Source of the DNA: Candidatus Jorgensenbacteria bacterium
GTDB taxonomy: Bacteria > Patescibacteriota > Minisyncoccia > UBA6257 > GWB1-50-10
Direction: 5' to 3'
DNA: 64,000 nucleotides
Assembly (NCBI GenBank): GCA_030648515.1
Contig: JAUSHK010000003.1
Span: 44,710 to 108,709 of the forward strand
The translations under genes were made by a program, and so were the position numbers. Shown here piece by piece: positions 5,461-63,630 of the stretch (its first letter is position 1; each line of letters opens with the position of its first letter). Below the pieces are notes generated by a model that worked only from the letters and a program-made list of their open reading frames with translations, did no database searches and was not told where the DNA came from.

Positions 5461-5532
5461 TCCCCTCGTGAGGAATCGAACCTCAATTTCCAGCTTCGGA
5501 GGCCAGCGTCCTATCCGTTGAACGACGAGGGG
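5461..5532 (-). tRNA. tRNA-Arg (anticodon CCG)
   Basis: 72-nt cloverleaf folded by hand: acceptor CCCCTCG/CGAGGGG, D-loop with GG, anticodon loop CTCCGAA, T-loop TTCGATT, discriminator A; CCA not encoded. Confidence 0.75.
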
Positions 5533-30181: not shown

Positions 30182-30197
30182 GATAATAGAACATTTT

Positions 30198-31523
30198 TTA
30201 TTGAGCTAACTGAACATGGAAGTGTCGATCTGCGCCAGTTTCTCTGCATAACTTACCAACTTTACTAGGCGAAGCATAAGCTTTGAGATTATTAAAATCC
30301 TTATCATTTGCAACGCATAATTTAGTAACCCTTGGATTGTCAATAAGGTATTTACCGAGTACGTCCCACGCAAGCTCATTGCTTCTATTTTTAGGAACGA
30401 CGTCAAAAATTGGCTCGCCGGGGCCATGCGTGTTGTGCCCCTCCTCGGTTCCTCCGGTTACTTCAATTTGGCACGGGGGCCATCCACTAAGCGGTTTTGT
30501 CCCAACTTGTATTTCGCAATTTTGCGGGATTTCCTTAAGAAAAGTAATAACGCTATTAGGCATTCCACTAAGAGACGTGCAGTTAGTGGCTTTAGCGGTC
30601 GGACAATCTAGTTTGTTTATGGTAATATTTTTATTTACTTCTAGTTCAGCTCTTAAAGCTGCGTCCGAAGAATAACTTGCTTCCCCTTGTAAACTTGTAA
30701 TTTGTTGCCCTTCAATAATACAAGCGCTCAAATCATCCCGTAGCTGCACTGATTGCACAGATTGCTTCCCGTCATTATAGTCAGGCGGCTGATAAGCGTA
30801 TATGAGACACTTCGCGCTTTCCGAAGGTGTCACAGAGCCTTTTATAAAATACGGATAACTCCACACGATTGAACTTATGGGAATTGAAATATTATAGGTA
30901 GTCAGCCCAAGATAATAATACTTTTTATCCCCAGCGTTTGCGCTGAGCGTTATCTGTTTTGTGGTTACCGTCTTTCGGAATTGGCATCCGTCAACTTCCC
31001 CGGGGACTTCGCTTAAATACAGAATACTAGCTGGATCTCCGCAACTTTTACTCTCAGCCCCGAGCGAAAGGGATGACGACGCTACTGTTTTTTGCGGAGC
31101 GTACGGCTCTTTAAGCGTCACAAGTTCCGGATTGATGGTATTTAAGATGAGATAAGTGCCGAAGAGCAGGACAATCCCCCAAATGGCAGAGGTAATCATC
31201 TCTCTTCCAAGCCCGGCTTTTGTAACATCGCCTGTCGTCGCGGAAATATAAATGCCGCCGGCAATAATCATTCCGACCGCGAGAATGCCCGCTATCGCGA
31301 TGCCGAATTGGTAAATCTTTTTAATGTAATCAATGAACGATGTATCGCTGCTTACGCCAACAGTGCAGTCTTGCCCGAGTTGCCCGGCTGGACACGGAAA
31401 ATTAATGTCTACGATTTGCGATGTGGCAGACGGATCAGTTTTTTCTTGTCCGTATGCCAGCGCGCCAGACATTGTAAACATCACAGTGAATACAAGCAGA
31501 AGAAGAACTAAAAATTTTTTCAT
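30198..31523 (-). CDS. VirB2/TrbC-like pilin module fused to large Cys-containing extracellular domain
   Basis: signal peptide, helix-loop(SATTGD..GREM)-helix identical in architecture to paralogs at 53657..55426, then ~310-aa domain with 10 Cys. Confidence 0.45.
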   Translation of the reverse strand: MKKFLVLLLLVFTVMFTMSGALAYGQEKTDPSATSQIVDINFPCPAGQLGQDCTVGVSSDTSFIDYIKKIYQFGIAIAGILAVGMIIAGGIYISATTGDVTKAGLGREMITSAIWGIVLLFGTYLILNTINPELVTLKEPYAPQKTVASSSLSLGAESKSCGDPASILYLSEVPGEVDGCQFRKTVTTKQITLSANAGDKKYYYLGLTTYNISIPISSIVWSYPYFIKGSVTPSESAKCLIYAYQPPDYNDGKQSVQSVQLRDDLSACIIEGQQITSLQGEASYSSDAALRAELEVNKNITINKLDCPTAKATNCTSLSGMPNSVITFLKEIPQNCEIQVGTKPLSGWPPCQIEVTGGTEEGHNTHGPGEPIFDVVPKNRSNELAWDVLGKYLIDNPRVTKLCVANDKDFNNLKAYASPSKVGKLCRETGADRHFHVQLAQ

Positions 31524-31538
31524 ACGTTTAATAACTGA

Positions 31539-32219
31539 TTATTGAACCATTAATTTCGCACGACCGTTCGCAAATTCCGCAAGGTTACTTTGATTTTGAA
31601 CTGTTCCCGTTATGCGCAGTGTTTGCTGTCCGGACGTCTGAAGCGCCCCAAGTTTTAAAGACAATGCATTGTCCCCGGTTGATTGCTGACGGGTATCATT
31701 AATTTGCCAGAAAAAAATAAGGTCGTTGAGTGAGGAGTTTGTAAAAAAGTACGGAATAGATTTCAAAAATATGTCGCTCTGTGCTTGCACAATACCATTT
31801 GGATATGGCGCTTCAATCACGACTCGCGGCGCCGTGATTGGAATTTGGAGAGATGTTACGAGCGTCCCCTCTGCGCGCTCAATTTCTGCCCGTATGGTGT
31901 GCGTTCCGCTGTCTTTCTGCCGAGCCGTGAACGTTACACTCTTTTTCCCGTGCCCCTCACTCACAAAATTATCATCAAGGTACCACGCGATATTAGAGCC
32001 GCTAATGTTTAAGAATTTCCCTCCGCGCACTACTTCAACGAGCGCTGTCACGGGCGTGCCGGGAGTTACGAGCGGTTTCCCTAGAAAATTCGCCGGATAA
32101 AAATTGTTCGCTTCCCATGTAATAATGACCTGGTCAGTTGTTTGCGCAAGAGCAGTTTGAACAAGTGTAGCGACCGCAAGTATTGCTAAAATAACAATGG
32201 TAAAACGTGCTAAATTCAT
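31539..32219 (-). CDS. hypothetical secreted protein
   Basis: cleavable-type signal peptide (..ALA/QT), beta-rich 200-aa domain. Confidence 0.4.
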   Translation of the reverse strand: MNLARFTIVILAILAVATLVQTALAQTTDQVIITWEANNFYPANFLGKPLVTPGTPVTALVEVVRGGKFLNISGSNIAWYLDDNFVSEGHGKKSVTFTARQKDSGTHTIRAEIERAEGTLVTSLQIPITAPRVVIEAPYPNGIVQAQSDIFLKSIPYFFTNSSLNDLIFFWQINDTRQQSTGDNALSLKLGALQTSGQQTLRITGTVQNQSNLAEFANGRAKLMVQ

Positions 32220-32251
32220 CCCGTTTATTATAACCTATTTAACAGTCGTGC

Positions 32252-32563
32252 TCACGTCTTCTCATGTGGCGCCGCGCGATTATGCATAATCGCGCTGACG
32301 ACAAACACAACAAACGTTGTTGGTATCACAGGAAGTATATTCGCGGCGTACTTAGCTATTTGTCTCCCGATCTTTTTTGAGTCGGCGTCTCCCTTGTTTT
32401 TAAACCAAAACCACGTTGCCGCAGTCACGCCCGCTTGTATAAGCGGGCTCACAATAATGCCGATAGCAAATGCGTCGAGAATCCCGCAAGCAAAGTCAAT
32501 AAAGAACGTGACTAATCCCCCAATAAGGATTTCGGCCTCCGAAAACTTTTTATACTCGCCCAT
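32252..32563 (-). CDS. small 3-TM membrane protein (possible VirB3-like accessory)
   Basis: 103 aa, three hydrophobic segments, directly upstream neighbour of VirB4-like ATPase. Confidence 0.35.
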   Translation of the reverse strand: MGEYKKFSEAEILIGGLVTFFIDFACGILDAFAIGIIVSPLIQAGVTAATWFWFKNKGDADSKKIGRQIAKYAANILPVIPTTFVVFVVSAIMHNRAAPHEKT

Positions 32564-32566
32564 CGA

Positions 32567-34324
32567 TTATTGCTTTTCAATCCCCTTCATCTCGAGCATT
32601 TGCTCCGGATTTGTCGTGATAATCTGGTCCTCGGTGTACGACGCAATAACCTTAAGCGCGACGTGTTTCAATCCAGCGAAGAAAAGCCCTTCGCCGACGT
32701 TTGCTTCAAGGAGAAACGCCTTCTCGCCTTCCGTAAGGCCGAATGTCTGCGCGACCGGCGCGATGCTCGCGGGTGATTGTTTCATAAGAAGCTGGAGCGA
32801 AGAGTTTGTAATGATTGGCCGGCCGTAGTCCGACTTAATGAAATCCTCAACGTCTTGCGTAATCGTTGTAATGCCGAGATAGTATTTGCGCGAGCGTTTT
32901 ACGAGACCAAAGAGGAACGCCGCGCTGTCCTTATACTTCATCATCCACCACGCCTCATCAATGACGAGGATTCTTGGTTTTAGCTGCGAGCGGATGAGGT
33001 TCCAGACGAAGTTTAAAACAATATACATTGCAATCGGCCGCAACTCTTCCTCAAGATCGCGGATTGAAAAAACAATCAGGCGGTTTTTAACATCAACATT
33101 GGTCGGGGCATTCGTAAATCCGGCGTATGAGCCGTTCACGAACTTTTCAAGCCGCTGGCCGATTCCGCGCCCGCCCTCGGTGTTTTGAAGAATTGTCTGG
33201 AGGTCTCCCAAAAGCGGCGGATTAAGCTCTTTCATTGAGCCGAAATTTTCCGCCGTAATGTCGCGCGAGGCATAGGTTTCTGTAATCACGCGGTCAAGGA
33301 TCGCGTCCTCCTCGGGCGTTACGACTCCCAGCATAAGTTTTACAAGGCCGGTAAGGTTCAAGATGTGGGATTTAAACACGTCCGCCGGCTCCTCCCCTTC
33401 CGGTATCACTGGAATATCAAACGGGTTGATGTGGCTCTCGGACGTAAGAGAAATTTTAAAGTAGCTGCCGCCGATCGCGTTTGAAAGATTTTCATACTCA
33501 TTCTCGGGGTCAATGATGATTACGTCATTCCCGAGCATGAGCGATCGGAGAATTTCAAGCTTTGTTGCGTATGATTTCCCGGCACCTGCTTTCGCGAACA
33601 CAACCTGGTTCGCGTTTTCAAGCGAGAAGCGGTCAAAGATGACAAGTCCGTTATTGTGAAGATTTATCCCGTAAAGAATGCCCTTGTCCGATGAAAGATT
33701 TGGCGAGACAAATGGAAAAAGAGACGACGCAGGTCCCGAATTGAGGGGCGTGTGAATCTGAATCTGGTCCTGATTCAGCGGGAGGACCGAATTAAATCCC
33801 TCAATCTGGCGGAAAAGCGCTGGCTTTATGTAGACAAGCTTGCTTTCTAAAACGTTTTCAACGGTGTGCTCAAGCCGGTTTAATTCCTCAATGCTTGCGC
33901 CATAAAACGTGATATAAACCCCGACTTTAAAAAGATGTTCTTGTGCTTGCATCAGCATATCGCGAAGATTCTCTACGTCTTCCTGCGCGGTTTCAAGCGC
34001 CGGGTCGCGCACAAGCCCTTTCTCCTCCTTTTCTGAAAGTTCCACCTCAATTTGCGTAATTTTCTTTTTAAGGCCGCGAAGCGCGAGCGCTGTGTCCATT
34101 GGGTGTATGAAAATTGAGATGTCCATCATTTGCGCCATATTAATAATAGGAGAGAACCACCCGCTTGATATGTATCGCGGATAAGTGAAGATGAAGACGG
34201 TTTTCGCGTAGTAATCGCCGATTTTAAGATAGTTCGAGCTTACCTCAAGGCCGGCGGGGGCGATAATATTTGGAATGTCTTCCTCGGGAGACGCTTTGTA
34301 AGCTTTCGGAATTTTAATATCCAT
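32567..34324 (-). CDS. VirB4/TrbE-like (Gram-positive type) conjugation/secretion ATPase
   Basis: Walker A AKAGAGKSY, Walker B ILVIDEAWWM, N-terminal region with conserved hydrophobic block typical of VirB4-family. Confidence 0.7.
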   Translation of the reverse strand: MDIKIPKAYKASPEEDIPNIIAPAGLEVSSNYLKIGDYYAKTVFIFTYPRYISSGWFSPIINMAQMMDISIFIHPMDTALALRGLKKKITQIEVELSEKEEKGLVRDPALETAQEDVENLRDMLMQAQEHLFKVGVYITFYGASIEELNRLEHTVENVLESKLVYIKPALFRQIEGFNSVLPLNQDQIQIHTPLNSGPASSLFPFVSPNLSSDKGILYGINLHNNGLVIFDRFSLENANQVVFAKAGAGKSYATKLEILRSLMLGNDVIIIDPENEYENLSNAIGGSYFKISLTSESHINPFDIPVIPEGEEPADVFKSHILNLTGLVKLMLGVVTPEEDAILDRVITETYASRDITAENFGSMKELNPPLLGDLQTILQNTEGGRGIGQRLEKFVNGSYAGFTNAPTNVDVKNRLIVFSIRDLEEELRPIAMYIVLNFVWNLIRSQLKPRILVIDEAWWMMKYKDSAAFLFGLVKRSRKYYLGITTITQDVEDFIKSDYGRPIITNSSLQLLMKQSPASIAPVAQTFGLTEGEKAFLLEANVGEGLFFAGLKHVALKVIASYTEDQIITTNPEQMLEMKGIEKQ

Positions 34325-34352
34325 GTAAATAATTAGTAATTAAGGGTTAATG

Positions 34353-34994
34353 CTATTGTTTTCGCGTGGCCTCCAAATTTTTCTTTTCGGTAAGCTGCGG
34401 ATTGTAGAGATTGTAAAAAAGCTCGACCATTTCATCGTCCGCGAGTTCAGCTGTCCGAAGCCCGATTTGCCCAAGGCCGCTAGTGACTTGCGACACCCTC
34501 TGCTCAAGCTGTTCTGCGTTTTCTTTTTCGGTATTCTCCTTTTGTTTCTGATTTGGTTTTTGTCCAAGGACTCCGCTTAAGAAACCGCGCGCTTCAGAAA
34601 CAAGAATAAGTGGCTCGTACGGGACGATTACAAAGAAAGCCTTATCAATAATAGCGTTTTGCTCGACAAATGACTTAATGAACTCAACATATTCCGCAAT
34701 CTGGATTTTGAGGAGTTCATTTGTTTCCTCGTTTTTACGCGCAAGCATGCGCTCAAGATAACTCTCAATATTCACTTTCCTTGAATGGATGAAAAATTGT
34801 ATTGGGAAGTCAAGTCCGTTCAGAAAATTCTGGAACGTACCGAGAATCATTTCCTGTTCTTCCTCTGATTTGAGATCGAAATTAATTCCGCTTACAATTA
34901 AAATTTTTCGCAGCCCGCCCTTTTTTAAATAGACGATGCTGTTTTTAACCTCTTTAATTTCTACGAATTTTTGCGTCGGCAAAGATGGCTCCAT
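34353..34994 (-). CDS. hypothetical cytoplasmic protein of T4SS-like operon
   Basis: 213 aa, no TM; no recognisable motif. Confidence 0.4.
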   Translation of the reverse strand: MEPSLPTQKFVEIKEVKNSIVYLKKGGLRKILIVSGINFDLKSEEEQEMILGTFQNFLNGLDFPIQFFIHSRKVNIESYLERMLARKNEETNELLKIQIAEYVEFIKSFVEQNAIIDKAFFVIVPYEPLILVSEARGFLSGVLGQKPNQKQKENTEKENAEQLEQRVSQVTSGLGQIGLRTAELADDEMVELFYNLYNPQLTEKKNLEATRKQ

Positions 34995-35006
34995 GTGTTT
35001 ATTATA

Positions 35007-35489
35007 TTAGTAATCTATGCGCTTTGCCACAACTTTTTCTCCGGTTATCCGCGTAACGACCTGAAGTCGCTCCCCCGAGGATTCCTTGCTCTCGGTAAAT
35101 ATTTTTCCCGTTGCGATATTCATAGTAATAGATTTCAACTTTTCCTGGATGCTCATCGTGTTCCGCACTGCCTTAATCCGCTCAATATCGGAAACGTCAA
35201 CGTCTTTTGATATTCTCTGCCACGTGTAGACGCGCGGCTGCCACATATATGAGAGTCCAGAGAGAAGTGCCTGCGTGGCGTCTTGCCCATTGATTTTTAT
35301 AAACGCGAGCGCCGCGGCGGCTCCGCCCACGATAATCGTAATCAAAATCCAGAAAAACATGTTGAAAATGTTATATGAGATAACACTAATAAGGAACGCG
35401 CCCGCGATAAAGAAAAACTGCCGGAGCGTAAGTGGTCCGATGATTTTTGCCTTTTCTTCAATGAATTGTGGGACTTGGAATGTTGCCAT
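35007..35489 (-). CDS. 2-TM membrane protein (possible PrgI/VirB3-like)
   Basis: 160 aa, two adjacent TM helices near N-terminus then soluble tail. Confidence 0.35.
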   Translation of the reverse strand: MATFQVPQFIEEKAKIIGPLTLRQFFFIAGAFLISVISYNIFNMFFWILITIIVGGAAAALAFIKINGQDATQALLSGLSYMWQPRVYTWQRISKDVDVSDIERIKAVRNTMSIQEKLKSITMNIATGKIFTESKESSGERLQVVTRITGEKVVAKRIDY

Positions 35490-35490
35490 G

Positions 35491-36459
35491 TTATTGCTTG
35501 AGATTTACGATGTTGCCGTCTAAAAGTACACCCCCTTTCATTGTATCCTCTCCTTGTTTTTGAGGCGAACTTATTTGTTGCGCGGGTAATGGAGCCGGAA
35601 TCGGCGAGATTGGCGGAACTGGCGCGTTAGGCGCCTTAATTGACTGCGGCGCGGAGCTTGGAGCCGCTCCACGGGCACCTCCGCCGAAAGTTTCTAGATT
35701 AATAAACTCCCCTCCGCGCGACACTGGAGAAATCGGCGTGCGGAATTCGCTGTAGTGCACTACGCGCTTATCCTGAGCGGAGCCGAAGGATTTCTCCGGC
35801 TGTGGCTTGCTCTGAACTTGCCGATTTTCGTCAGGCGCCTCGATTTTGGCTTTTACCGGATTTTGTATTTCTTGCGGCGTGATTTTTTGCGCGAAGAAAC
35901 TGAATGATTTAGAAAGGTCCTTGAACGGAACTTTTGTACGTTCACTTGCGCCGGGTCCGAGTGGGCGCATCTCGTGAAGAATAAGCGGCGCGCCTTCCTC
36001 GCCCATCGTTTGTTTTGAGGCACCTTCGCGGATTGGTATTTGGGCTGTCTTTTCTTCGGATCTTTTTCCCTGAGCGGGAACATTTTGCAATAAACTTCCT
36101 CCCTGACGCGAAAGTGCTAACTCTTCATCAGCTGGCATATATATCTGCGCGAGGTCGCTTTTTACGGGGTTGAAAATTTCAGAAGCGAGCTCGTTTGAAA
36201 GCGCGGTCGCATGCTCAAAGTTCATATAAAGCCGGTCAACAAGTTCCTGCTTCAAGTCGCGCATATCAAGAAATCCAAGGAGCACGAGCCCGACGAGCTG
36301 TTCAAGAAGTCCGATTTTCTCGCGGCTCAAGTAATGCGATTTTCCAATTTGTGTTACAAGTTTTTCCGTGTGTTCGCTCGCAAGTAATTCCTGAATATGC
36401 TCAGGTAACGTATCAAATCGGTCTGAAATAATTTCTTGTGTGAGAAGTGAGTAATCCAT
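35491..36459 (-). CDS. hypothetical protein with Pro/Ala-rich disordered C-terminus
   Basis: 322 aa, structured N-terminal ~120 aa, low-complexity remainder. Confidence 0.4.
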   Translation of the reverse strand: MDYSLLTQEIISDRFDTLPEHIQELLASEHTEKLVTQIGKSHYLSREKIGLLEQLVGLVLLGFLDMRDLKQELVDRLYMNFEHATALSNELASEIFNPVKSDLAQIYMPADEELALSRQGGSLLQNVPAQGKRSEEKTAQIPIREGASKQTMGEEGAPLILHEMRPLGPGASERTKVPFKDLSKSFSFFAQKITPQEIQNPVKAKIEAPDENRQVQSKPQPEKSFGSAQDKRVVHYSEFRTPISPVSRGGEFINLETFGGGARGAAPSSAPQSIKAPNAPVPPISPIPAPLPAQQISSPQKQGEDTMKGGVLLDGNIVNLKQ

Positions 36460-36462
36460 ATA

Positions 36463-38514
36463 TTACACCGTGTTTGGAGGTATTGTATTGCCGCTTTGGC
36501 CCTGTCCTGGCTGTTGCTGACTTTGTGTTGGGCTTGTTGAGGCGGTAGGTGGTTGTTGTGATTGTCCGCGTCTATTTCTCCCAGTGACCCCCATTGCCTT
36601 ATTCATGGCGCCTTGTTCTTTGTCTTTTTGAACCGCTACACTCGCATACGTCTTTATCCTAAAGTTGAGATCAGTAAGCGCTCCTTCTGTTTCCTTAAAT
36701 TTCTTTTTTGCGGTAGCTTTATCAGTCTTAGAAGCTTTCTCATCATCTTTAACCCTATCCCAATCCGCTTTAGCGGCACTAAATTCGCTTTGTAATTCGT
36801 TTTGTCCCTTGTTTTTCTTGCCATTATCATCAGTAAACCCATCAATAATCTTCTTAAGATTTGCATTTACTTCATCCATCCCCTTGCCTCCTAAATCTAC
36901 ACGAATCTCGTTCTCAATAATTCTATTGAGTTCTCCTTTTAGCCGTTTAACATCTGTATCAATTCCCATAACTTCTTTTGAATCCTCCTTGTATCCCGCC
37001 TGTATCATATTTTCCTTGAGATTTTCCCTTGTTTTAATATCTTCCGTAATTTCCCCCTTGGATTTTCTTTCTTGCGGTTTTTCTTCTTTCTTTTCAATAG
37101 CTCCGATACTTTCAAGACCACCTCTTGTAAGTATTCCGATTATGCCCTTAGCCTTAATATCCGGCGCTTTTGCGAGGTCCTGCATTGTCTTAGCCCGTCC
37201 GGAAAGCAGTTCCCCTGTTGCACCACTCAAGGAAGAAAATCCAGTGGCCTTAGTGGCAACATTGGCCGCGCGCTTACTCCAACGTTTCATAAATCCATCA
37301 TCCGGTTTCACCTTCCAATAATCACCAGCGACTCCTTGTAGTGCCTTGCCGCCGCCCTGAAGCCTTTTTGCAACATTCTGTCCAAACCTAGTCCGTGCCG
37401 TTGCTTGAGTGCTGCGGCGCGCAATATTCCCCGCCCATTTTTTTGTGCTGTTTCCAAGGCTTTGTGCCGCGCCGAGCGCTGCCTTTGCACCAGTAGCTCC
37501 CATCGACTGTGCTGTTATAAGCCCCATCATGAGGATGCCGCACAACACAATCAAATTAAGGCCATTAGAAATAGTTTCTCGTATAGCGCCAAGCGCTGTT
37601 CCGCCAACTATGCCCGTTGGAGGGTTTTCTGCAAACTGCTGTGCGGCGACAACCGCCAAGTAAACAAAGAACGACATTGCCGGAGCAAATAATAACTGCT
37701 CAGTAAACTTTTTCCACCACTTACTCCAGTGTTCGGAAAGCGCAGGAAACGCGAGTGTGAGGCACGCCATCGGCGCGAGAATCAATAAAACAGAAAGATA
37801 AAGATATCTTGCAAGGAGCATGAATGCAAACCCAAGCATCGTAATCGCGGCAATCATTGTAAACGCGACATTGAATACGAGCGTGGTAAGTCCCACAAGC
37901 ACCGCTGTTCCAAATGTCGCAAGTCCGCCCCCTTGTTCCGCGGGATCCGGCGGTGGCGGGTCGGCTGGCGGCGTAAGAAACTTCTGCGGGTTTATAACCC
38001 TTCCTATCGTGTCGGATAATAGAAGGCTGGTACCCTCAGGGACGGTTCTTCTGATAAAGAATTTTGTGAGAACATTCGAAAACTGGATGAGTGAGCCGGC
38101 GATGGTGAGCGAGAAATTCACAAGAATCGCGACTGCTATGAGTTTTCCGAGAAGTTTATTATTGCCGTAGCTCTGGTATCTTACGATGGTTGCGATGGCG
38201 ATGATAATCGCAAGGAGCACAAAGCCGAGGTTCGCAAGGTCGCGGGTGATTGTCCACCCTATCTGCACTACTTTATTGGTGGAATTTAAAATATCAAAGT
38301 TCAACTGAAGCGCGATATCAACAAGCCACCCTCCTAAAATGAGAAGCGCTCCGGAAATAAAATTAAAGAGGTACCCAATGTAATAGAAAAAACCGCCGAC
38401 AATTTCCGAGGTGCTCCATCCTAGCGCGCTCGCCTGATGCGGGATAATAAATACGATAAATGATACAAAGAAAACTGTGAAAAGTATTTTTTTGTTGAAA
38501 AATTTCATGAGCAT
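36463..38514 (-). CDS. VirB6/TrbL-like polytopic membrane protein with long charged/Q-P-rich C-terminal tail
   Basis: N-terminal signal-like segment, >=5 TM helices over ~450 aa, then K/E-rich coiled-coil-like and Gln/Pro-rich terminus. Confidence 0.55.
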   Translation of the reverse strand: MLMKFFNKKILFTVFFVSFIVFIIPHQASALGWSTSEIVGGFFYYIGYLFNFISGALLILGGWLVDIALQLNFDILNSTNKVVQIGWTITRDLANLGFVLLAIIIAIATIVRYQSYGNNKLLGKLIAVAILVNFSLTIAGSLIQFSNVLTKFFIRRTVPEGTSLLLSDTIGRVINPQKFLTPPADPPPPDPAEQGGGLATFGTAVLVGLTTLVFNVAFTMIAAITMLGFAFMLLARYLYLSVLLILAPMACLTLAFPALSEHWSKWWKKFTEQLLFAPAMSFFVYLAVVAAQQFAENPPTGIVGGTALGAIRETISNGLNLIVLCGILMMGLITAQSMGATGAKAALGAAQSLGNSTKKWAGNIARRSTQATARTRFGQNVAKRLQGGGKALQGVAGDYWKVKPDDGFMKRWSKRAANVATKATGFSSLSGATGELLSGRAKTMQDLAKAPDIKAKGIIGILTRGGLESIGAIEKKEEKPQERKSKGEITEDIKTRENLKENMIQAGYKEDSKEVMGIDTDVKRLKGELNRIIENEIRVDLGGKGMDEVNANLKKIIDGFTDDNGKKNKGQNELQSEFSAAKADWDRVKDDEKASKTDKATAKKKFKETEGALTDLNFRIKTYASVAVQKDKEQGAMNKAMGVTGRNRRGQSQQPPTASTSPTQSQQQPGQGQSGNTIPPNTV

Positions 38515-38525
38515 TCAGGAAGCGC

Positions 38526-40505
38526 CTATTGGCTCATAAACGATTCGCTTGTTGTCGCTGTTCGCGCGCCCGACCCGGTCGCCGACGCAGTTGCGGAAAT
38601 CGCCGATGTATTAAGGGCCGACTGCGCCGGACATATATATTCCTTTGCCCGATTTTCGCAGAGAACTTTCTCGTCGCTGAACTGTTTTATCGTTAACTGA
38701 AGCTGTGTTTTAAGCGTTCCAAGTGCTTGAACATTGCTTTGGAGACTACTAAGAACGGAATTTAATGATGTGATAAGTGAAATGAGCGTATTATCATCTG
38801 AACTTTCGGCACTGGATTGAATGTTTCTCGCTTGCGCGATTATAGCGGTCGCCTGGTCGAGGTCGCTTTGCATTGTGGAAAGCGACGTCGCTAAATTTTT
38901 CGCGCTCGAAACCGCGGTATTAGTATTTGCGCATCCATCCCCCGACATTATCCCGTTCAGCGTGCGGTCTTTTTGGCAGACGAGCAACTTTTCTGTCATG
39001 GTGTCTGCGGCATCATTATTGGCAACACGCGCATTAAGTGCGATAACCTCTGGCAGAAGCGCATTTTCATCTTGCCACGCCTGCGTGGTGCTCGCGATAA
39101 GATTATTTACTGTTTGAACAAGCGATGCGCCTAAGTTGCCGGCGTTTCGATAATCAGTTGCGCCCTGTAAAAGCCCCGCTGTTCCCGCGGCACTCGCTGT
39201 AAGTGGTGTTGATTTTCTCCCCGTGGTGGTTTCGCTAAAGATATCGCTTGCCGAATTTTTGATTCCCTTCACTCCTGATGAGATAAGCCGGTTTACCGCC
39301 GCGTCAAAAATCATAGACATATACGGAGTAAGATCGTCGGCGCTCAAGAGATAATCAGTGTCAGAGGTAAATGCCTTATTAGTAGCAGCTTCTTTTACAG
39401 TGTAAGGTAACGTCGTTTCAGTGTTCTTGCAATTCCAGCGAAGATTTCTAGCGTTACTAAAGTTTTCAGGAACAAGGTCCTGAGACGGATCGGACGGATT
39501 GTATGTAGGTGGTTTTGTCGGATCAGGGAATTTACTTGTGTTAAGTGTGGGACCAAGGATTTCCTGCTCGAAGCCATTAAAAGTTCCAAGGAGTCGCCAC
39601 TGAGTACACTGTTCTGTTGGGGTAAATCCAGCGCTTACGTTAAATTGTGCTTGTTTTTTAGCTTCTTCTTCCGCTTTTTTCTTTTGGTAATCCTCGTACG
39701 TCATATACGCGAGGCCATACTGGTTATTCTGCGGTTTTAGAAGTTCGTAATACCCGAGCCATCCTCCGGTTGTGAAATTGTCGCGAAACCCCGCCGCATT
39801 ATCCATAACTTGCGAAAGCGTACAGCTGTATCGTTCCGCGGGAGGTACTGATTGTTGAAGTTGTAAGTTAATATTGAAACGAAACGCATTGCCATAACAA
39901 AGGTTTCCCAAGCCGATGTCGATGAGTGTATCGCCGGCCGCTTTATCTGCCGCATCCCTCATAAATCCCGTGAAATTCGTGACAAACTGAGGCTTTCCGC
40001 CATCTCCCCTGATCCACGAGATGGTCTGGTCAGTCATGCGGTCCAATAGGCGCTTCTTGAAATTATAGAGGGCAATCTTTCCGGCCTGATTCATTATGTC
40101 GGTGATACATGTCTGGATGGACTGTGTATTCACAATATCTCTAAGTCCAGTTTCTTTTACACGCTGCTCGCCCCCAATGATTCCTCCAGTGAGAAAGCTG
40201 AGGCCACTTGATATGCCGCTTGATATAAGTCCGGTAACTTCTTGGAGAAGCATGTTCATGCCCGTTTTTATAAAACATTTATTTGTAGAAGCTTTTTTCT
40301 CATCTATAAGCTTTTCAGCCGTTGGAGCTGGAGCAATGATATTATTGGGATTTGCGAGATCCGGCGATGGTACGAGGTTTCTTGTTGCCGGAGTGTTAGC
40401 GTCGTCCCCGCTCGTTTGGGCATAGGAAATAAACGGCAAGCTAGCGCCTAAAACAATTGTCGCGGAGAGCAATATCGCAATGAATTTTAATCCTTTAGAA
40501 TCCAT
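38526..40505 (-). CDS. large secreted hypothetical protein
   Basis: signal peptide, 659 aa, Thr/Ser/Asn-rich, no motif. Confidence 0.4.
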   Translation of the reverse strand: MDSKGLKFIAILLSATIVLGASLPFISYAQTSGDDANTPATRNLVPSPDLANPNNIIAPAPTAEKLIDEKKASTNKCFIKTGMNMLLQEVTGLISSGISSGLSFLTGGIIGGEQRVKETGLRDIVNTQSIQTCITDIMNQAGKIALYNFKKRLLDRMTDQTISWIRGDGGKPQFVTNFTGFMRDAADKAAGDTLIDIGLGNLCYGNAFRFNINLQLQQSVPPAERYSCTLSQVMDNAAGFRDNFTTGGWLGYYELLKPQNNQYGLAYMTYEDYQKKKAEEEAKKQAQFNVSAGFTPTEQCTQWRLLGTFNGFEQEILGPTLNTSKFPDPTKPPTYNPSDPSQDLVPENFSNARNLRWNCKNTETTLPYTVKEAATNKAFTSDTDYLLSADDLTPYMSMIFDAAVNRLISSGVKGIKNSASDIFSETTTGRKSTPLTASAAGTAGLLQGATDYRNAGNLGASLVQTVNNLIASTTQAWQDENALLPEVIALNARVANNDAADTMTEKLLVCQKDRTLNGIMSGDGCANTNTAVSSAKNLATSLSTMQSDLDQATAIIAQARNIQSSAESSDDNTLISLITSLNSVLSSLQSNVQALGTLKTQLQLTIKQFSDEKVLCENRAKEYICPAQSALNTSAISATASATGSGARTATTSESFMSQ

Positions 40506-40520
40506 GTTTTATTGTTACGA

Positions 40521-41330
40521 TTAAAGTTTGCTAAGTGTATTTTGAAATGACGCGAGTAACTGTTCCTCATTATTTACCGCATCCGAAAGTCCTTGAAGCG
40601 CGGCAAGCGGTTTTAAACTATCTTGATTGCCATCAAGGACAGCTTTTCCTAGCTCGTAGCGCTCGTTCCACGCGTTTATAAAATCAAGATGAAACGAGGC
40701 GAGATTAGGCGGCGCGGTAATCGCAAGAAGATCAGTGATTTGGTCAGAAGTCGTAGTTAGATAGCCCTGAAGCTTTTCCGCGCTCTGGTTTATAACAGCA
40801 TCAGCGACCATCGCTAAGTATTGGTCATCCTGTCCGTGAAAATTTTTTATGTACGTGTTTTGGATATTTTTAAGATACGCGAGCGCGGCTTCCTTACTGA
40901 AATCGTTTGAGATTTTTATATCTTTTGTTTCGTAGTGTTTTATTGCAATACCACGAGAAAGTTCGTCGCTTATAATATTGCCCAGCGTCGCCTCATTCGG
41001 CACGGTGATTGGAGAGCTTGTGCCCACGCCAAACTTATTTGCATTAAAAATTTCCTGCTGATAGCGCTGAATAACCCGCTCGGTAATACTATTAGGATTT
41101 TGCTGTACCGCGGAATCGGTGTTGGTCGCGACCACGCTTGAAGTCGCAAAACGTCCAGAATCAACTCCGGACCGGATGATTTCAAAAAGCGACGCAACGT
41201 TCCCGGTTTTGGACTTTGAATTTACAATCCAGAATGAAATCCCTGCTCCGATAAGAACAATAAAAATTGCAATGACAAACCGCCTGTTTTGAAACATTTT
41301 TGTCCTCTTATTATACACTATCGCGGGCAA
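40521..41330 (-). CDS. bitopic membrane protein (candidate VirB8-like scaffold)
   Basis: single TM near N-terminus, ~220-aa extracytoplasmic domain; overlaps rsmA 3' end by 20 nt. Confidence 0.35.
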   Translation of the reverse strand: MPAIVYNKRTKMFQNRRFVIAIFIVLIGAGISFWIVNSKSKTGNVASLFEIIRSGVDSGRFATSSVVATNTDSAVQQNPNSITERVIQRYQQEIFNANKFGVGTSSPITVPNEATLGNIISDELSRGIAIKHYETKDIKISNDFSKEAALAYLKNIQNTYIKNFHGQDDQYLAMVADAVINQSAEKLQGYLTTTSDQITDLLAITAPPNLASFHLDFINAWNERYELGKAVLDGNQDSLKPLAALQGLSDAVNNEEQLLASFQNTLSKL

Positions 41331-48872: not shown

Positions 48873-49148
48873 TTACGCCTCAATCGCGAGTTTCTTCGCG
48901 AGCTTTTCGTATTTCTTCTCGTTCGTGTGTTTTAAATATTCCAAAAACTTCCTCCGCTTCCCTACCATCATAATAAGCCCGCGGCGCGAGTGATGATCCT
49001 TCGCGTTTTTCTTTAAATGGTTCGCGAGTTCGCTGATACGCTTCGTAAGAATGCCGATTTGCACCTCCGCCGAGCCGGTATCCCGATCGTGTTTTTGGTG
49101 TTCTTTTATGACCGTCTGCTTTTTACGTTTAGTAAGCATATATCTCAA
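48873..49148 (-). CDS. rpsO: 30S ribosomal protein S15 (true start probably at second Met, 49139)
   Basis: DTGSAEVQIGILT..HLKKNAKDHHSRRGL conserved S15 core. Confidence 0.8.
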   Translation of the reverse strand: MRYMLTKRKKQTVIKEHQKHDRDTGSAEVQIGILTKRISELANHLKKNAKDHHSRRGLIMMVGKRRKFLEYLKHTNEKKYEKLAKKLAIEA

Positions 49149-49242
49149 TCGTACCGCAAATATGTTTGATTGTCAAAATTCCGTCCGAAATGGTGCCTGC
49201 CCCGTTTCCAACGGGTGTCGCACAATAATGTACAATAAAGAT

Positions 49243-50139
49243 ATGACAGAGATTGAAAAATTGATGCAGGATTACCTTTCCTATCTTGAAATTGAAAAAA
49301 ACCGCTCCCGAAAAACGCAGGAAAATTATGGGCGCTACCTCAAGGTTTTCATAAAGGAATCAGGAATACGATCGGCGCGCGACATAACGCAGGACACGGT
49401 CCGCAATTTCCGATTGAAACTCGCAAAAGGAGATACTAAAAAAATAACGCAGAGCTATTACGTTATCGCGATACGCAGCTTCTTAAAATATCTCATAAAG
49501 CGCGGGATGAAAGCGCTCTCTCCTGAGATGATTGAACTGCCTAAGGTAACGCGGCGGGAAATAGAAGTATTGAGTTATGACGAGCTTGAGCGGCTCGTTG
49601 GCACTCCTGCCGGAAGCGATATTCGTTCGCTCCGCGACAGGGCGATTTTAGAAACGCTGTTTTCAACCGGCCTCCGCCTTTCGGAGCTCTGCTCGCTTGA
49701 TAGGTATATTGATTGGAAACGCGGCGAGATTTCAATCCGCGGAAAAGGCGACAAATTGCGCGTTGTGTTCCTCTCCCCTACCGCGAAGGAAAAACTCAAA
49801 GCGTATCTTGATAAGCGCACCGACACGGAAGAAGCGCTCTTTGTAAGCATTTCAAAAGCCAAAGTCCCGAAAGTTTTGGGACGCGTAATTCCGCGCGCGG
49901 TGGAGCGCCTTGTTGATTTTTATGCGCGCAAAGCCGGTATCGCTAAAAAAGTGCATCCGCATCTCTTGCGTCACTCGTTTGCCACCGACTTATTAGTAAA
50001 CGGCGCCGATCTCCGCTCGGTGCAGGAACTCCTTGGCCACGCGAATATCGCGACAACCCAAATCTACACACATCTCACAAATAAAGAGCTCCGCGAAGTC
50101 CACTCCGCCTTTCACGGCGTAAGGAGAAAGGAGAAATAG
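49243..50139 (+). CDS. tyrosine site-specific recombinase XerC/XerD family (start at internal Met; track ORF extends to 49051)
   Basis: R..H..R..Y catalytic motifs (LLRHSFAT, LLGHANIATTQIYTHL). Confidence 0.75.
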   Translation: MTEIEKLMQDYLSYLEIEKNRSRKTQENYGRYLKVFIKESGIRSARDITQDTVRNFRLKLAKGDTKKITQSYYVIAIRSFLKYLIKRGMKALSPEMIELPKVTRREIEVLSYDELERLVGTPAGSDIRSLRDRAILETLFSTGLRLSELCSLDRYIDWKRGEISIRGKGDKLRVVFLSPTAKEKLKAYLDKRTDTEEALFVSISKAKVPKVLGRVIPRAVERLVDFYARKAGIAKKVHPHLLRHSFATDLLVNGADLRSVQELLGHANIATTQIYTHLTNKELREVHSAFHGVRRKEK

Positions 50140-51067: not shown

Positions 51068-51111
51068 GTTTTTGAAATTATTTTTTTACTAATGTTAATT
51101 ATTTCTTCCTG

Positions 51112-51193
51112 TGCCTCCGAGAGGATTTGAACCTCTAACCCTTGCGGGACAGCGTCCTAAGCGCTGCGCGTATGCCAGTTCCGCCACGGAGGC
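51112..51193 (-). tRNA. tRNA-Leu (anticodon TAG), long variable arm
   Basis: 82-nt cloverleaf by hand: acceptor GCCTCCG/CGGAGGC, 3-bp D stem, anticodon loop CTTAGGA, 13-nt variable arm hairpin, T-loop TTCAAAT. Confidence 0.8.
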
Positions 51194-60464: not shown

Positions 60465-61559
60465 ATGATAAACACAGACTATAAACAAGACGCGCTTATC
60501 CTGCCACTCGCAATTAAATCGGATCCGCGGCTTTTTGCCTTTTTAAAGGCGGGAGATCTTATCTCGGGCGCGCTCATAAAAAAAGGCGCAAACATTGCTT
60601 TTATTGATTTGGGAAAATACGGAACCGGCGTGGTGTATCACGATGAAATGTTAAACGCGCGGGAACTGTTGCGGAACTTGAATCCCGGCGACACGGTGCA
60701 GGCGAAAATAGTTGATACTGATAACGAGCAGGGATTTGTGGAACTCTCGCTCTCCGAAGCCGGACGGCAGAAAGCATGGGGCGAAATTACCGAGCTTAGG
60801 GAAAAAGACGAGCCGATTGCCATTAAAATCATGAGCGCTAATAAGGGCGGGCTAATCTCCGAAATCCGCGGCATTCCTGCCTTTTTGCCGGTTTCCCAGC
60901 TTTCAAACGACCATTATCCAAAGGCCACGTTTGAGGAAAAAGAGAAAATACTTGAAGAGCTCCAGAAGCTTGTCGGCGAAGAAATCAAAGTGAAAATTAT
61001 TGACGCGAATTCGCGCTCAAATAAATTGGTTGTTTCCGAACGCGAGGCGTCCGAGGTTTCAAGCCGCGAGTTCGTGAAGAATTATTCCGTCGGACAGATT
61101 GTTGAGGGAATTATTTCGGGCGTTGCCGACTTCGGCGCGTTTATGAAGTTTACCGACAATCCGGCTGTTGAAGGTTTGATACACGTCTCGGAACTTGATT
61201 GGCGTACTGTTGATAACCCGAAAGAAATCGTGAAAATTGACGACGTTGTCAGGGTAAAAATTATTGAAATCAAGGACGGCAAGATTTCGCTCTCGCTCAA
61301 AGCGTTGAAGTCCGACCCGTGGCAGACGGTCGGCGAGCTTTTCCGCGAAGGCCAGGAAGTTAAAGGAACTATTTATGCCACGAACCCGTTCGGCGCGATT
61401 ATCAATCTCGGCGGTTCTTTCCAGGGGCAATTGCACGTTACGGAATTTGGCAGCATTGAAGAAATGAAAAAGCGGTTAAGCGGAGACAAGGAACACGTCT
61501 TTATTATTGAAAGCATAAAGCCCGAGGAACGGAGAATCGCGCTGAAGCTCAAAGCATAA
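60465..61559 (+). CDS. S1 RNA-binding multi-domain protein (ribosomal protein S1-like)
   Basis: four repeats with S1 OB-fold signatures (G..V.G.V......G.FV.L....G..H.SE). Confidence 0.65.
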   Translation: MINTDYKQDALILPLAIKSDPRLFAFLKAGDLISGALIKKGANIAFIDLGKYGTGVVYHDEMLNARELLRNLNPGDTVQAKIVDTDNEQGFVELSLSEAGRQKAWGEITELREKDEPIAIKIMSANKGGLISEIRGIPAFLPVSQLSNDHYPKATFEEKEKILEELQKLVGEEIKVKIIDANSRSNKLVVSEREASEVSSREFVKNYSVGQIVEGIISGVADFGAFMKFTDNPAVEGLIHVSELDWRTVDNPKEIVKIDDVVRVKIIEIKDGKISLSLKALKSDPWQTVGELFREGQEVKGTIYATNPFGAIINLGGSFQGQLHVTEFGSIEEMKKRLSGDKEHVFIIESIKPEERRIALKLKA

Positions 61560-61660: not shown

Positions 61661-63499
61661 ATGAAAAATCTTAGTAAAAAACTCATCATAGTAATTGTTT
61701 TCTTCGTGTTGCTCGCGATCGCTTTTTCATCGGTTGAGATGAATGGCGAAAAACCGAAACAGCTTTCTTTAAACGCGCTCGCGCAAAAAATCGGCACTGG
61801 AGAAGTAAAAAGCATTGAGGTTTCCGGCAACGACGTAAACGTGGTGCTTAACAGCGGGGACAAGGTTTTGGCGCAGAAAGAAGCCGAGTCCGGGCTCGTT
61901 GAAACGCTTAAGAATTACGGCGTAGATCCGAAACAGCTTCAATCCATAGATGTTTCCGTAAAGGGGCCGGGCGGAACGCAATATTGGCTTGAAATTTTAA
62001 TTCCGACGCTTCTCCCGCTCATTGTAATAGCGATAATCTTTTTCTGGCTTTTCCGTCAGGCAAAAACAGGCGCGAATCAGGCGTTCTCATTTGGAAAAAT
62101 AAACGCGCGGCTCTTCGCAGTTTCTCGTGACCGCATTTTATTTAAAGACATCGCGGGACTCAAGGAGGCGAAAGAAGAATTGCGCGAAGTCGTGGACTTT
62201 CTTAAAAATCCAAAAAAGTTTTTGGATATCGGCGCAAAAATCCCGCGTGGAGTTCTTCTTATTGGATATCCGGGAACTGGCAAAACACTTCTTGCGCGCG
62301 CGGTCGCGGGTGAGAGTAATGTCCCCTTCCTTCACATCTCGGCATCCGAATTTGTTGAAATGTTTGTCGGTGTTGGCGCCTCCCGCGTGCGCGATCTTTT
62401 CCAGACCGCAAAGCGCGCCGCGCCGGCGATTATCTTCATTGATGAAATTGACGCCGTCGGCCGCGAGCGCGGCACTGGTTTAGGCGGCGGGCACGATGAG
62501 CGCGAACAGACATTAAACCAAATCCTCGTTGAAATGGACGGCTTTGACCGCGACACGAACGTGATTGTGATTGCGGCGACGAACCGCCCTGACGTGCTTG
62601 ACGCCGCGCTTCTCCGCCCAGGCCGCTTTGATCGGCGCGTGATGCTTGACATGCCGGACATTCAGGACAGGAAAGCGGTTCTCGAAATTCATAGCGAAGG
62701 AAAGCCACTCGATAAAGACGTTGATTTACGGACAATCGCGGTTCGCACGCCGGGATTTTCAGGTGCAGATCTCGCAAACCTCATGAACGAAGCAGCAATC
62801 TTGGCCGCTCGGCGCAATAAGAAAATTGTGAGCCAGGCGGAAATCATTCATTCAATTGAAAAAGTTATGCTTGGTCCGGAGCGAAGAAGCCGCGTGATAT
62901 CCGAGCGAGAAAAGAAAATCACTGCGTACCATGAAGCCGGCCACGCGCTCGTCTCGGCAGCGTTAAAGGACGCCGACCCGGTGCATAAAATTTCAATCGT
63001 GAGCCGCGGATTTGCCGGCGGATATACCTTAAAGCTTCCAACCGAAGAGCGCCGACTCAAAACGCGCGCGCAGTTTCTCGCGGAACTTGCCGTCGCTTTC
63101 GGCGGATACGCTTCTGAACTTCAGGAATTCAAAGACATCACAACCGGCTCATCAAGCGACATTCAGCAAGCGACTGACATCGCGCACGACCTCGTTGCTC
63201 GCTACGGAATGAGTGAAAAGCTTGGGCCGCGCGCGTTCGGCAAGCACAGCGATCTTGTGTTTCTTGGGCGCGAGATTTCTTCTGCGCGCGATTACTCCGA
63301 GAGCGTCGGCACGAAAATAGACGAAGAAATTAGCGCGGTTATCCAGAAAACGCTCGGTATGGCGAAAAAGATTGTCTTGGGAAACAAGGAAATTCTTGAT
63401 GCAATCGCAAAAGAACTGATTGAAAAAGAAACGATTGAGCACGAGGAGTTTAATAAATTAATAAAGAACTTTAATCTGAAACCGATTGCGATAAAGTAG
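61661..63499 (+). CDS. ftsH: ATP-dependent zinc metalloprotease FtsH
   Basis: N-terminal TM pair, AAA Walker [17 protein letters not shown] zinc site. Confidence 0.9.
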
Positions 63500-63543
63500 C
63501 CGGCTTGACACGCCCGTGTCTACGCCCGATTATTTTATAGACG

Positions 63544-63615
63544 CGGTCCGTAGCTCAACGGTAGAGCAATCGTCTTATACACGATTGGTTGTAGGTTCGA
63601 ATCCTACCGGACCGA
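63544..63615 (+). tRNA. tRNA with anticodon TAT (Ile2/UAU-type)
   Basis: 72-nt perfect cloverleaf by hand: acceptor CGGTCCG/CGGACCG, D-loop AACGGTA, anticodon stem ATCGT/ACGAT, loop CTTATAC, T-loop TTCGAAT, discriminator A. Confidence 0.7.
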
Positions 63616-63630
63616 CTGTTAGGTACTATT

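What the first reader, a model, noticed from the sequence alone, without database searches (positions are those of the whole stretch)
63544..63615. tRNA gene with UAU anticodon (tRNA-Ile2 type) and C1-G72 acceptor pair
Seen: a perfect 72-nt cloverleaf with anticodon loop CTTATAC (U33, anticodon TAT, A37). All four stems are fully Watson-Crick. Established: most bacteria read AUA with a CAU-encoded tRNA modified to lysidine by TilS. A genomically encoded UAU tRNA-Ile is rare and usually correlates with absence of tilS. The tRNA-Arg(CCG) at 5461..5532 also begins with C1-G72.
Basis: partly seen in the sequence, partly recalled or inferred. Interest (0 to 1): 0.5.

Follow-up and report, generated by a model that had tools for sequence, protein, structure and literature searches.

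The report
Lysidine-independent AUA-reading isoleucine tRNA (anticodon UAU)
This is a genuine, well-conserved isoleucine tRNA that reads the AUA codon directly with a UAU anticodon; it is considered rare in bacteria, but it is the normal arrangement in the ultra-small Paceibacteria (CPR) that this DNA comes from, so the gene is ordinary for its lineage.

Summary
Window 63544-63615 (+) is a 72-nt tRNA with anticodon UAU, four fully Watson-Crick stems, C1-G72 and A73 (ARAGORN; Rfam 74.5 bits). The window is a Paceibacteria (Patescibacteria/CPR) chromosome containing dnaA, dnaN, gyrA and ftsH. The tRNA lies 44 nt downstream of ftsH, behind a promoter-like TTGACA-17-GATTAT.

Of the 80 closest ftsH loci from other genomes, 70 carry a tRNA-Ile(UAU) within 5.3 kb downstream of ftsH. 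These tRNAs show an invariant CUUAUA loop, A73 throughout, and compensatory changes in 19 of 21 stem pairs. AUA is frequent in the window (16.9 per 1000 codons) and aligns with Ile codons, not Met or Lys.

No TilS homologue is present in the window or in the related loci. Published tRNA counts for 95 complete Patescibacteria genomes show two complementary states: 1 Ile plus 3 CAU tRNAs, or 2 Ile plus 2 CAU tRNAs. Fourteen of 20 Paceibacteria are in the second state.

The best reading is that this tRNA is the lineage's AUA decoder and replaces tRNAIle2(CAU)/TilS. C1-G72 is not unique to this gene: 31 of 70 orthologues have it, and the pair has flipped repeatedly. Absence of tilS from this particular genome could not be tested. 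This is a new member of a known kind, of moderate to low interest.

The parts
63544..63615 (+). tRNA-Ile(UAU), 72 nt, positions 1-73 by standard numbering; C1-G72, A73; no encoded CCA
   Evidence: ARAGORN; Rfam RF00005 74.5 bits; sequence; 69 orthologues plus L082; covariation
63576..63578 (+). Anticodon TAT (U34 A35 U36) within the loop CTTATAC (63574-63580)
   Evidence: CTTATA is invariant in 70/70 orthologues; position 38 is C in 57, A in 11 and T in 2
63505..63533 (+). Sigma-70-like promoter candidate TTGACA-17-GATTAT in the 44-nt ftsH-tRNA spacer; it ends 10 nt before tRNA position 1
   Evidence: Consensus scan, 10 of 12 matches. This is a pattern match only, and function is inferred
61661..63499 (+). 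ftsH (612 aa), the conserved upstream neighbour of the tRNA
   Evidence: TIGR01241 770.9 bits. The tRNA lies downstream of ftsH in 70 of 80 related loci
   Evidence: The tRNA-Arg(CCG) genes in L009 and L082 start with G

Best explanation
The gene encodes a functional elongator tRNA-Ile whose unedited UAU anticodon reads the frequent AUA codon. In this Paceibacteria lineage it takes the place of the usual bacterial pair of tRNAIle2(CAU) and the lysidine synthetase TilS. It is probably transcribed from its own promoter just after ftsH, trimmed by RNase P, given CCA by the CCA-adding enzyme (CCA is not encoded), modified to t6A37, and charged by IleRS. That IleRS is probably the eukaryote-like type 2 enzyme, which tolerates U34. 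Shown here: the gene, its structure, its conservation and covariation, its synteny, and AUA = Ile. Inferred: absence of tilS and tRNAIle2(CAU) from this genome, the IleRS type, the modification state of U34, and the way AUG misreading is avoided (competition with tRNA-Met and/or ribosomal discrimination, as in Mycoplasma mobile). The confidence of 0.8 is for the whole statement, including sole-decoder status; that it is a functional AUA-reading tRNA-Ile I put at about 0.95.
For: The tRNA calls are strong. The organism is identified by its genes and relatives: dnaA, dnaN, gyrA, ftsH and a short S1 protein, and the 80 best FtsH relatives, nearly all of them labelled as Paceibacteria/Parcubacteria-type or other Patescibacteria MAGs. 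Seventy of 80 related loci have tRNA-Ile(UAU) 8-5322 nt downstream of ftsH, and 6 of the 10 loci without a complete gene have under 1 kb of downstream sequence. All 70 tRNAs have A73 and CUUAUA, and 19 of 21 pairs carry compensatory changes. AUA makes up 333 of 19,701 codons in the window, or 16.9 per 1000. AUA columns in FtsH are 46.6% Ile, 16.6% Val, 15.2% Leu and 3.2% Met. No PF01171/TilS appears among all 29 window ORFs of at least 300 aa. There is no SGGxDS PP-loop ORF, and no phmmer hit to E. coli TilS in 3,063 ORFs from 1.31 Mb. Table S2 of PMC13011429, as tabulated, gives 14 of 20 complete Paceibacteria genomes with 2 Ile tRNAs and only 2 CAU tRNAs, whereas 33 of 36 Saccharimonadia have 1 Ile tRNA and 3 CAU tRNAs. 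IleRS of two Paceibacteria carries PF19302, which I take from my own knowledge to be the C-terminal domain typical of type 2 IleRS (supplements). Taniguchi 2013 links tilS-less UAU bacteria to eukaryote-type IleRS.
Against: Only 64 kb of the genome was seen, so a tilS gene and a CAU tRNAIle2 elsewhere cannot be excluded. One of 15 UAU-type complete Paceibacteria genomes in the published table has 3 CAU tRNAs, and bacteria that carry both systems are known, such as L. casei and Cyanothece. The published table gives counts per amino acid, not anticodons, so reading the second Ile gene as UAU is my inference from the loci. The E. coli IleRS determinants C4-G69 and A38 are not present in the window tRNA. 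The nearest E. coli tRNA by raw sequence is tRNA-Lys at 77%. No aminoacylation, modification or expression data exist.
Confidence: 0.8

Rival explanations
1. Redundant decoder: the genome also keeps tilS and tRNAIle2(CAU), and the UAU tRNA is an extra AUA reader, as reported for Lactobacillus casei/plantarum, Cyanothece and Ferrimonas.
For: Such dual-system bacteria exist. Five of 95 complete Patescibacteria genomes, one of them a Paceibacteria genome, show 2 Ile tRNAs plus 3 CAU tRNAs. The rest of this genome was not seen.
Against: Fourteen of the 15 UAU-type complete Paceibacteria genomes have only 2 CAU tRNAs. The near-universal retention and strong purifying selection on the UAU gene fit an essential, non-redundant role. 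No TilS is found near ftsH in any of the 80 loci, although from my own knowledge many other bacteria (for example B. subtilis, tilS-hprT-ftsH) keep tilS next to ftsH.
Confidence: 0.1
2. Codon reassignment or a different identity: the UAU tRNA is charged with Met (as in mitochondria, where AUA = Met) or with Lys (its body resembles tRNA-Lys).
For: The best E. coli match by sequence is tRNA-Lys, at 77% identity. C1-G72 is not a typical bacterial tRNA-Ile feature.
Against: In FtsH alignments, AUA codons sit in Ile/Val/Leu columns (78% together), with Met at 3.2% and Lys at 2.4%. This profile mirrors that of ATT/ATC and differs from that of ATG. A35 is incompatible with the U35 that LysRS requires, and MetRS needs CAU (established identity rules, from my own knowledge).
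Confidence: 0.02
3. Non-functional or foreign copy: a pseudogene, a tRNA carried by a phage or mobile element, or a chance cloverleaf.
For: A tyrosine recombinase gene lies next to tRNA-Leu(UAG) elsewhere in the window (49051-50139), so mobile DNA may be present in the region.
Against: The Rfam score is 74.5 bits with perfect stems. The chromosomal position after ftsH is conserved in 70 of 80 relatives whose FtsH is only 52-68% identical to the window's. Covariation is pervasive. A promoter-like site lies upstream.
Confidence: 0.01

Closest known systems
Mycoplasma mobile tRNAIle2(UAU) (Taniguchi et al. 2013, PMC3575796)
   Same: A bacterial, genomically encoded UAU anticodon that reads AUA without lysidine, in a small genome. 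It has A37 (t6A in M. mobile) and an A73 elongator cloverleaf.
   Different: M. mobile has a type 1 IleRS adapted by Arg865 and derives from a tilS-containing ancestor within Tenericutes. Here the trait spans a whole class, and probably several CPR classes. The IleRS seen in two Paceibacteria annotations is type 2. The acceptor stem often has C1-G72. U34 status and ribosomal discrimination are untested.
Bifidobacterium and Neorickettsia tRNAIle(UAU) with eukaryote-type IleRS, no tilS (PMC3575796; PMC8450103)
   Same: A UAU tRNA combined with a type 2 (eukaryote-like) IleRS and loss of the TilS system. This is the combination inferred for Paceibacteria.
   Different: These are different phyla with independent origins. 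For this window neither ileS nor tilS status could be examined.
Canonical bacterial tRNAIle2(CAU) + TilS (lysidine; ava2C in some, PMC11938285)
   Same: The same decoding task (AUA = Ile), the same minor isoacceptor role, and A73/A37.
   Different: The gene encodes T, not C, at position 34, so no C34 editing is needed. No TilS homologue was found in any sequence examined.
Archaeal tRNAIle(UAU) of Nanoarchaeum equitans and Korarchaeum cryptofilum (cited in PMC8450103)
   Same: The UAU tRNA replaces the CAU/agmatidine system in ultra-small or reduced genomes. This parallels the episymbiotic CPR lifestyle.
   Different: A different domain, with TiaS rather than TilS as the lost enzyme.
C1-G72 tRNAs: bacterial tRNA-Pro, archaeal/eukaryal tRNA-Tyr (own knowledge)
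   Same: A C1-G72 first pair.
   Different: In those tRNAs the pair is a fixed identity element. Here it alternates with G1-C72 among close relatives, which argues against a strict identity role.

Membership tests
Bacterial tRNA-Ile(UAU) AUA decoder (lysidine-independent) | Canonical cloverleaf with U34-A35-U36 in a 7-nt loop, U33 and A37 | tested here: met
Bacterial tRNA-Ile(UAU) AUA decoder (lysidine-independent) | AUA is used and means isoleucine in the organism | tested here: met
   AUA is 16.9 per 1000 codons. AUA columns are 46.6% Ile and 3.2% Met
Bacterial tRNA-Ile(UAU) AUA decoder (lysidine-independent) | The gene is under purifying selection and conserved in relatives | tested here: met
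   Present in 70/80 loci; 19/21 pairs are compensatory; the loop is invariant
Bacterial tRNA-Ile(UAU) AUA decoder (lysidine-independent) | No tilS and no tRNAIle2(CAU) in the same genome | tested here: inconclusive
   Both are absent from the 64-kb window and from 80 related loci. Published counts give 2 Ile + 2 CAU tRNAs in 14/20 complete Paceibacteria genomes. The rest of this genome is unavailable
Bacterial tRNA-Ile(UAU) AUA decoder (lysidine-independent) | An IleRS able to accept U34 (Arg at the E. coli W905 site, or type 2 IleRS) | not testable with these tools
   ileS is not in the window or in any held locus. The supplements of PMC12281837 and PMC10936435 list PF19302 on Paceibacteria IleRS
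Bacterial tRNA-Ile(UAU) AUA decoder (lysidine-independent) | E. coli-type IleRS determinants A73, U12-A23, C29-G41, C4-G69, A38 (own knowledge, Nureki 1994) | tested here: inconclusive
   A73, U12-A23 and C29-G41 are present in the window tRNA. Position 4:69 is U-A and position 38 is C. Across orthologues only A73 and the D stem are constant
Canonical tRNAIle2(CAU)/TilS system | The gene encodes C34 (anticodon CAT) | tested here: not met
   The anticodon is TAT
Eukaryote-type tRNAIle(UAU) | An intron 3' of the anticodon and a psi-A-psi anticodon | tested here: not met
   The gene is a continuous 72 nt with no intron. Pseudouridylation is not testable
tRNA-Lys (nearest E. coli sequence) | Anticodon UUU/CUU with U35 | tested here: not met
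   Position 35 is A. Lys is only 2.4% in AUA columns

The most novel reading that the evidence does not exclude
Direct UAU decoding of AUA, without TilS or lysidine, may be the default state of most CPR classes: most Paceibacteria, and by published tRNA counts also Dojkabacteria, Microgenomatia, ABY1, WWE3, UBA1384 and Doudnabacteria. Saccharimonadia, JAEDAM01 and some Gracilibacteria would keep the CAU/TilS system. If so, 'lysidine is near-universal in bacteria' is a sampling artefact, and CPR would be a natural test bed for whether UAU decoding is ancestral (the model in Taniguchi 2013). A tRNA-specific, repeatedly flipping 1:72 pair (G-C <-> C-G) would then point to an unusual relaxation or re-tuning of acceptor-end recognition.
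Probability: 0.4. Interest if true: 0.55.

Novelty: new member of a known kind. Interest (0 to 1): 0.35.

Why it matters
Papers as recent as 2025-2026 treat tilS as conserved in about 98% of annotated bacterial genomes (PMC12514573) and describe tRNAIle(UAU) as a rare case (bioRxiv 10.64898/2026.02.03.703510). This gene is one example of a pattern in which a very large uncultured radiation decodes AUA without lysidine. I could not find that pattern discussed in any held paper: no paper combines lysidine with Patescibacteria, Parcubacteria or CPR, and the six papers holding 'tilS' and Patescibacteria use TILs in the tumour sense.

It has three practical consequences. It affects annotation, because tilS and Ile2 should not be counted as missing markers in these MAGs. 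It bears on ideas about how the AUA/AUG split evolved. It also bears on TilS as a proposed antibacterial target. For the single gene itself, the result is that it is normal for its lineage.

Tried and rejected
- **Finding the source genome.** The exact FtsH and GyrA proteins are not on record. The S1 protein occurs only on a 3-kb Logan contig from SRR13727527.
- **TilS next to ftsH.** The SGGxDS motif gave one hit, in L040, which is an M3 oligoendopeptidase (HEAGH motif) and not a PP-loop enzyme. phmmer with E. coli TilS found only the positive control.
- **IleRS typing in held loci.** phmmer hits to E. coli IleRS turned out to be LeuRS (L006) and C-terminal fragments that I read as ValRS (L013, L079).
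- **Supplementary annotation tables of two Paceibacteria.** The Minisyncoccus table is cut after about 603 of roughly 1,306 rows. Its lack of tilS (K04075), mnmE and mnmG is therefore weak evidence. A Prokka 'lysidine synthase' in PMX_810 is really an N-acetyl sugar amidotransferase. That bin also lacks ftsH, so its lack of tRNA-Ile(tat) is uninformative.
- **Rejected readings.** AUA = Met or Lys is rejected. A pseudogene or mobile tRNA is rejected. C1-G72 as a fixed identity element is rejected. The Rfam 'Plastid-ycf2' hit on the minus strand, at 31 bits against a gathering score of 65.7, is the reverse complement of the tRNA.

Full report
**Observation**

ARAGORN finds three tRNAs in the window. 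One is tRNA-Ile with anticodon tat at 63544-63616 on the plus strand. Rfam's tRNA model matches 63544-63615 over its full length at 74.5 bits, against a gathering score of 29.

Reading the sequence gives CGGUCCG-UA-GCUC-AACGGUA-GAGC-A-AUCGU-CUUAUAC-ACGAU-UGGUU-GUAGG-UUCGAAU-CCUAC-CGGACCG-A. All 21 stem pairs are Watson-Crick. The first pair is C1-G72 and the discriminator is A73. The anticodon U34-A35-U36 lies at 63576-63578, flanked by U33 and A37. CCA is not encoded.

tRNA-Arg(CCG) at 5461-5532 (minus strand) begins with C1-G72.

**Context**

The window is a bacterial chromosome segment, not a phage or plasmid. It carries:
- dnaA (25941-27308) and dnaN;
- polA, a class A penicillin-binding protein and PNPase;
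- gyrA, a short four-domain S1 protein and ftsH at 61661-63499.

Many ORFs have no Pfam match. The 80 closest FtsH relatives in one-genome-per-species GTDB contigs are 52-68% identical to the window's FtsH. Nearly all are labelled as Paceibacteria/Parcubacteria-type or other Patescibacteria MAGs. The species itself is not in that collection.

The tRNA starts 44 nt after the ftsH stop codon. That spacer holds a promoter-like TTGACA-17-GATTAT at 63505-63533.

**Conservation**

Scanning the 80 loci shows a complete tRNA-Ile(UAU) in 69 of them and a truncated one at a contig end in L048. It always lies on the downstream side of ftsH. It is on the same strand in 46 cases, including the window (8-4246 nt away), and on the opposite strand in 24 (12-5322 nt away).

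Of the 10 loci without a complete gene (this count includes L048), six have less than 1 kb of downstream sequence. A metagenome contig (L082) with FtsH at 58% identity carries the same tRNA body 240 nt downstream of ftsH, with a compensatory U4-A69 to C4-G69 change.

All 70 full-length genes have A73 and an invariant CUUAUA. Position 38 is C in 57, A in 11 and U in 2. In an alignment of 51 distinct sequences, 19 of 21 pairs show compensatory double changes, and only a handful of cells break pairing. This is a functional tRNA under strong selection.

**What it decodes**

AUA accounts for 333 of 19,701 codons in the window's non-overlapping ORFs. That is 16.9 per 1000 and about a fifth of Ile codons, which falls in the 'high use' class of PMC12514573.

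Across 81 aligned FtsH genes, I tallied what the other genomes hold in columns where one genome has AUA:

| Residue in other genomes | Share of AUA columns |
|---|---|
| Ile (ATT/ATC) | 46.6% |
| Val | 16.6% |
| Leu | 15.2% |
| Met | 3.2% |
| Lys | 2.4% |

This profile matches that of ATT/ATC and differs from that of ATG. AUA therefore means isoleucine. A Met or Lys identity is rejected, even though the nearest E. coli tRNA by raw sequence is tRNA-Lys at 77% identity.

**Does it replace the lysidine system?**

This could not be tested for the source genome, which is not retrievable. What could be tested is as follows.
- None of the 29 window ORFs of at least 300 aa has a TilS domain.
- No TilS-like PP-loop ORF (SGGxDS motif), and no phmmer hit to E. 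coli TilS, exists among 3,063 ORFs from 1.31 Mb of window plus loci. From my own knowledge, many other bacteria keep tilS next to ftsH, as in B. subtilis tilS-hprT-ftsH.
- Table S2 of PMC13011429 gives per-amino-acid tRNA counts for 95 complete Patescibacteria genomes. I tabulated them.

The tabulation shows two complementary states. In 48 genomes there is 1 Ile tRNA with 3 CAU tRNAs; this group holds 33 of 36 Saccharimonadia, 6 of 7 JAEDAM01 (the seventh has 4 CAU tRNAs) and 5 of 20 Paceibacteria. In 33 genomes there are 2 Ile tRNAs with 2 CAU tRNAs; this group holds 14 of 20 Paceibacteria, 7 of 7 Dojkabacteria and 6 of 12 Microgenomatia. Only 5 genomes have 2 Ile tRNAs and 3 CAU tRNAs.

That the extra Ile gene is the UAU one is my inference from the loci. 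With that inference, the UAU gene substitutes for the CAU Ile2 gene. The paper itself never mentions UAU, TAT or tilS.

**Mechanism**

Known tilS-less bacteria with tRNAIle(UAU) use one of two routes: a type 1 IleRS adapted at one residue (M. mobile Arg865), or a eukaryote-like type 2 IleRS (Bifidobacterium, Neorickettsia). ileS is not in any sequence I hold.

Annotation tables for two Paceibacteria list IleRS with PF19302. I take this, from my own knowledge, to be the C-terminal domain typical of type 2 IleRS. The stored half of the Minisyncoccus table has mnmA but no mnmE, mnmG or tilS entries, which is weak evidence because the table is cut.

I therefore infer type 2 IleRS charging, t6A37, and an unmodified or minimally modified U34. 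AUG misreading would be limited by tRNA-Met competition and/or ribosomal discrimination, as shown for M. mobile. None of these steps is shown here.

**C1-G72**

Thirty-one of the 70 orthologues have C1-G72, and 29 of those also have C2-G71. The window, L003 and L082 share the CGG... form. On an FtsH neighbour-joining tree the 1:72 state switches between G-C and C-G at least about seven times, and the window's nearest relative, L001, has G1-C72.

Among 76 other tRNAs in the same loci, only tRNA-Pro and the window's own tRNA-Arg(CCG) start with C. The tRNA-Arg(CCG) genes of L009 and L082 start with G. The pair is therefore real and specific to this tRNA, but evolutionarily labile. It is not a fixed identity mark. 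Its meaning is unexplained.

**Comparison and novelty**

Bacterial tRNAIle(UAU) is a known kind. Reports cover nine tilS-less species in three clades (PMC3575796), 19 species (PMC4013482) and 17 genomes (PMC8450103). This gene is a new member from a lineage where it is the norm.

I found no held paper that connects lysidine with Patescibacteria, Parcubacteria or CPR. Broader term searches found nothing relevant either, and the six papers holding 'tilS' and Patescibacteria use TILs in the tumour sense. The lineage-wide pattern therefore seems undiscussed, although it is implicit in published tables. Subscription literature was not searchable.

**Verdict**

The gene is ordinary for Paceibacteria. 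Interest is moderate to low for the gene and higher for the lineage-level pattern.

Noticed in passing
window 61661-63615; loci L001-L080: ftsH and tRNA-Ile(UAU) are syntenic across Paceibacteria. The tRNA is always on the downstream side of ftsH (46 same strand including the window, 24 opposite). In many other bacteria tilS-hpt sits upstream of ftsH (own knowledge), so the AUA-decoding determinant is ftsH-linked in both systems. This may be coincidence.
   Followed up: partly
tRNA position 1:72 in window 63544/63614 and 69 loci: The first acceptor pair flips between G-C and C-G at least about 7 times on the FtsH tree (31/70 are C-G). Other tRNAs in the same loci almost never start with C. Unexplained.
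   Followed up: partly
window 5461-5532 (-): tRNA-Arg(CCG) has C1-G72 and, by my reading of the sequence, G-U pairs in its D and anticodon stems. The tRNA-Arg(CCG) genes in L009 and L082 start with G, so this is specific to the window's organism.
   Followed up: partly
window 49051-50139 (+) and 51111-51193 (-): A tyrosine recombinase (phage-integrase family with an N-terminal SAM-like domain) lies about 1 kb from tRNA-Leu(UAG), in the lowest-GC stretch apart from the dnaA region (0.41). It could be XerC/D or the edge of an integrated element.
   Followed up: no
window 29012-41330 (-): A run of large same-strand ORFs mostly lacks Pfam matches (389, 441, 322, 683, 659 and 269 aa). It flanks a TraG/VirB4-like P-loop ATPase (32567-34324), possibly a secretion, pilus or conjugation-like module typical of CPR.
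   Followed up: no
window 25941-27308 (-), 24658-25767 (-): dnaA-dnaN with a low-GC region (0.41) at 24-28 kb. The window probably spans the replication origin.
   Followed up: no
window 60465-61559 (+): The ribosomal protein S1 homologue is only 364 aa and scores below every NCBIfam S1 cut-off. Its exact sequence occurs on a 3-kb Logan contig from SRR13727527, the only trace of this organism found in public assemblies.
   Followed up: partly
PMC13011429 Table S2 (95 complete Patescibacteria genomes): Published tRNA counts split cleanly into 1 Ile + 3 CAU (48 genomes) and 2 Ile + 2 CAU (33 genomes), by class. Five of 20 Paceibacteria are of the CAU type, so the class is not uniform. The paper does not comment on this.
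   Followed up: yes
L013 1-891 (+), L079 3-671 (+): A class I aminoacyl-tRNA synthetase (Pfam tRNA-synt_1 plus Anticodon_1), read here as ValRS, ends right after a partial anticodon-binding domain. It appears to have a shortened C-terminus in these Minisyncoccales-type contigs.
   Followed up: no
L013, L035, L079 downstream of ftsH: In one subclade tRNA-Ile(UAU) heads a conserved tRNA array (Ile-Val-Leu-Val-Phe-Gly, then Leu-Cys on the other strand). L079 is labelled Humimicrobiaceae but looks like a Paceibacteria contig, so it may be mis-binned.
   Followed up: no
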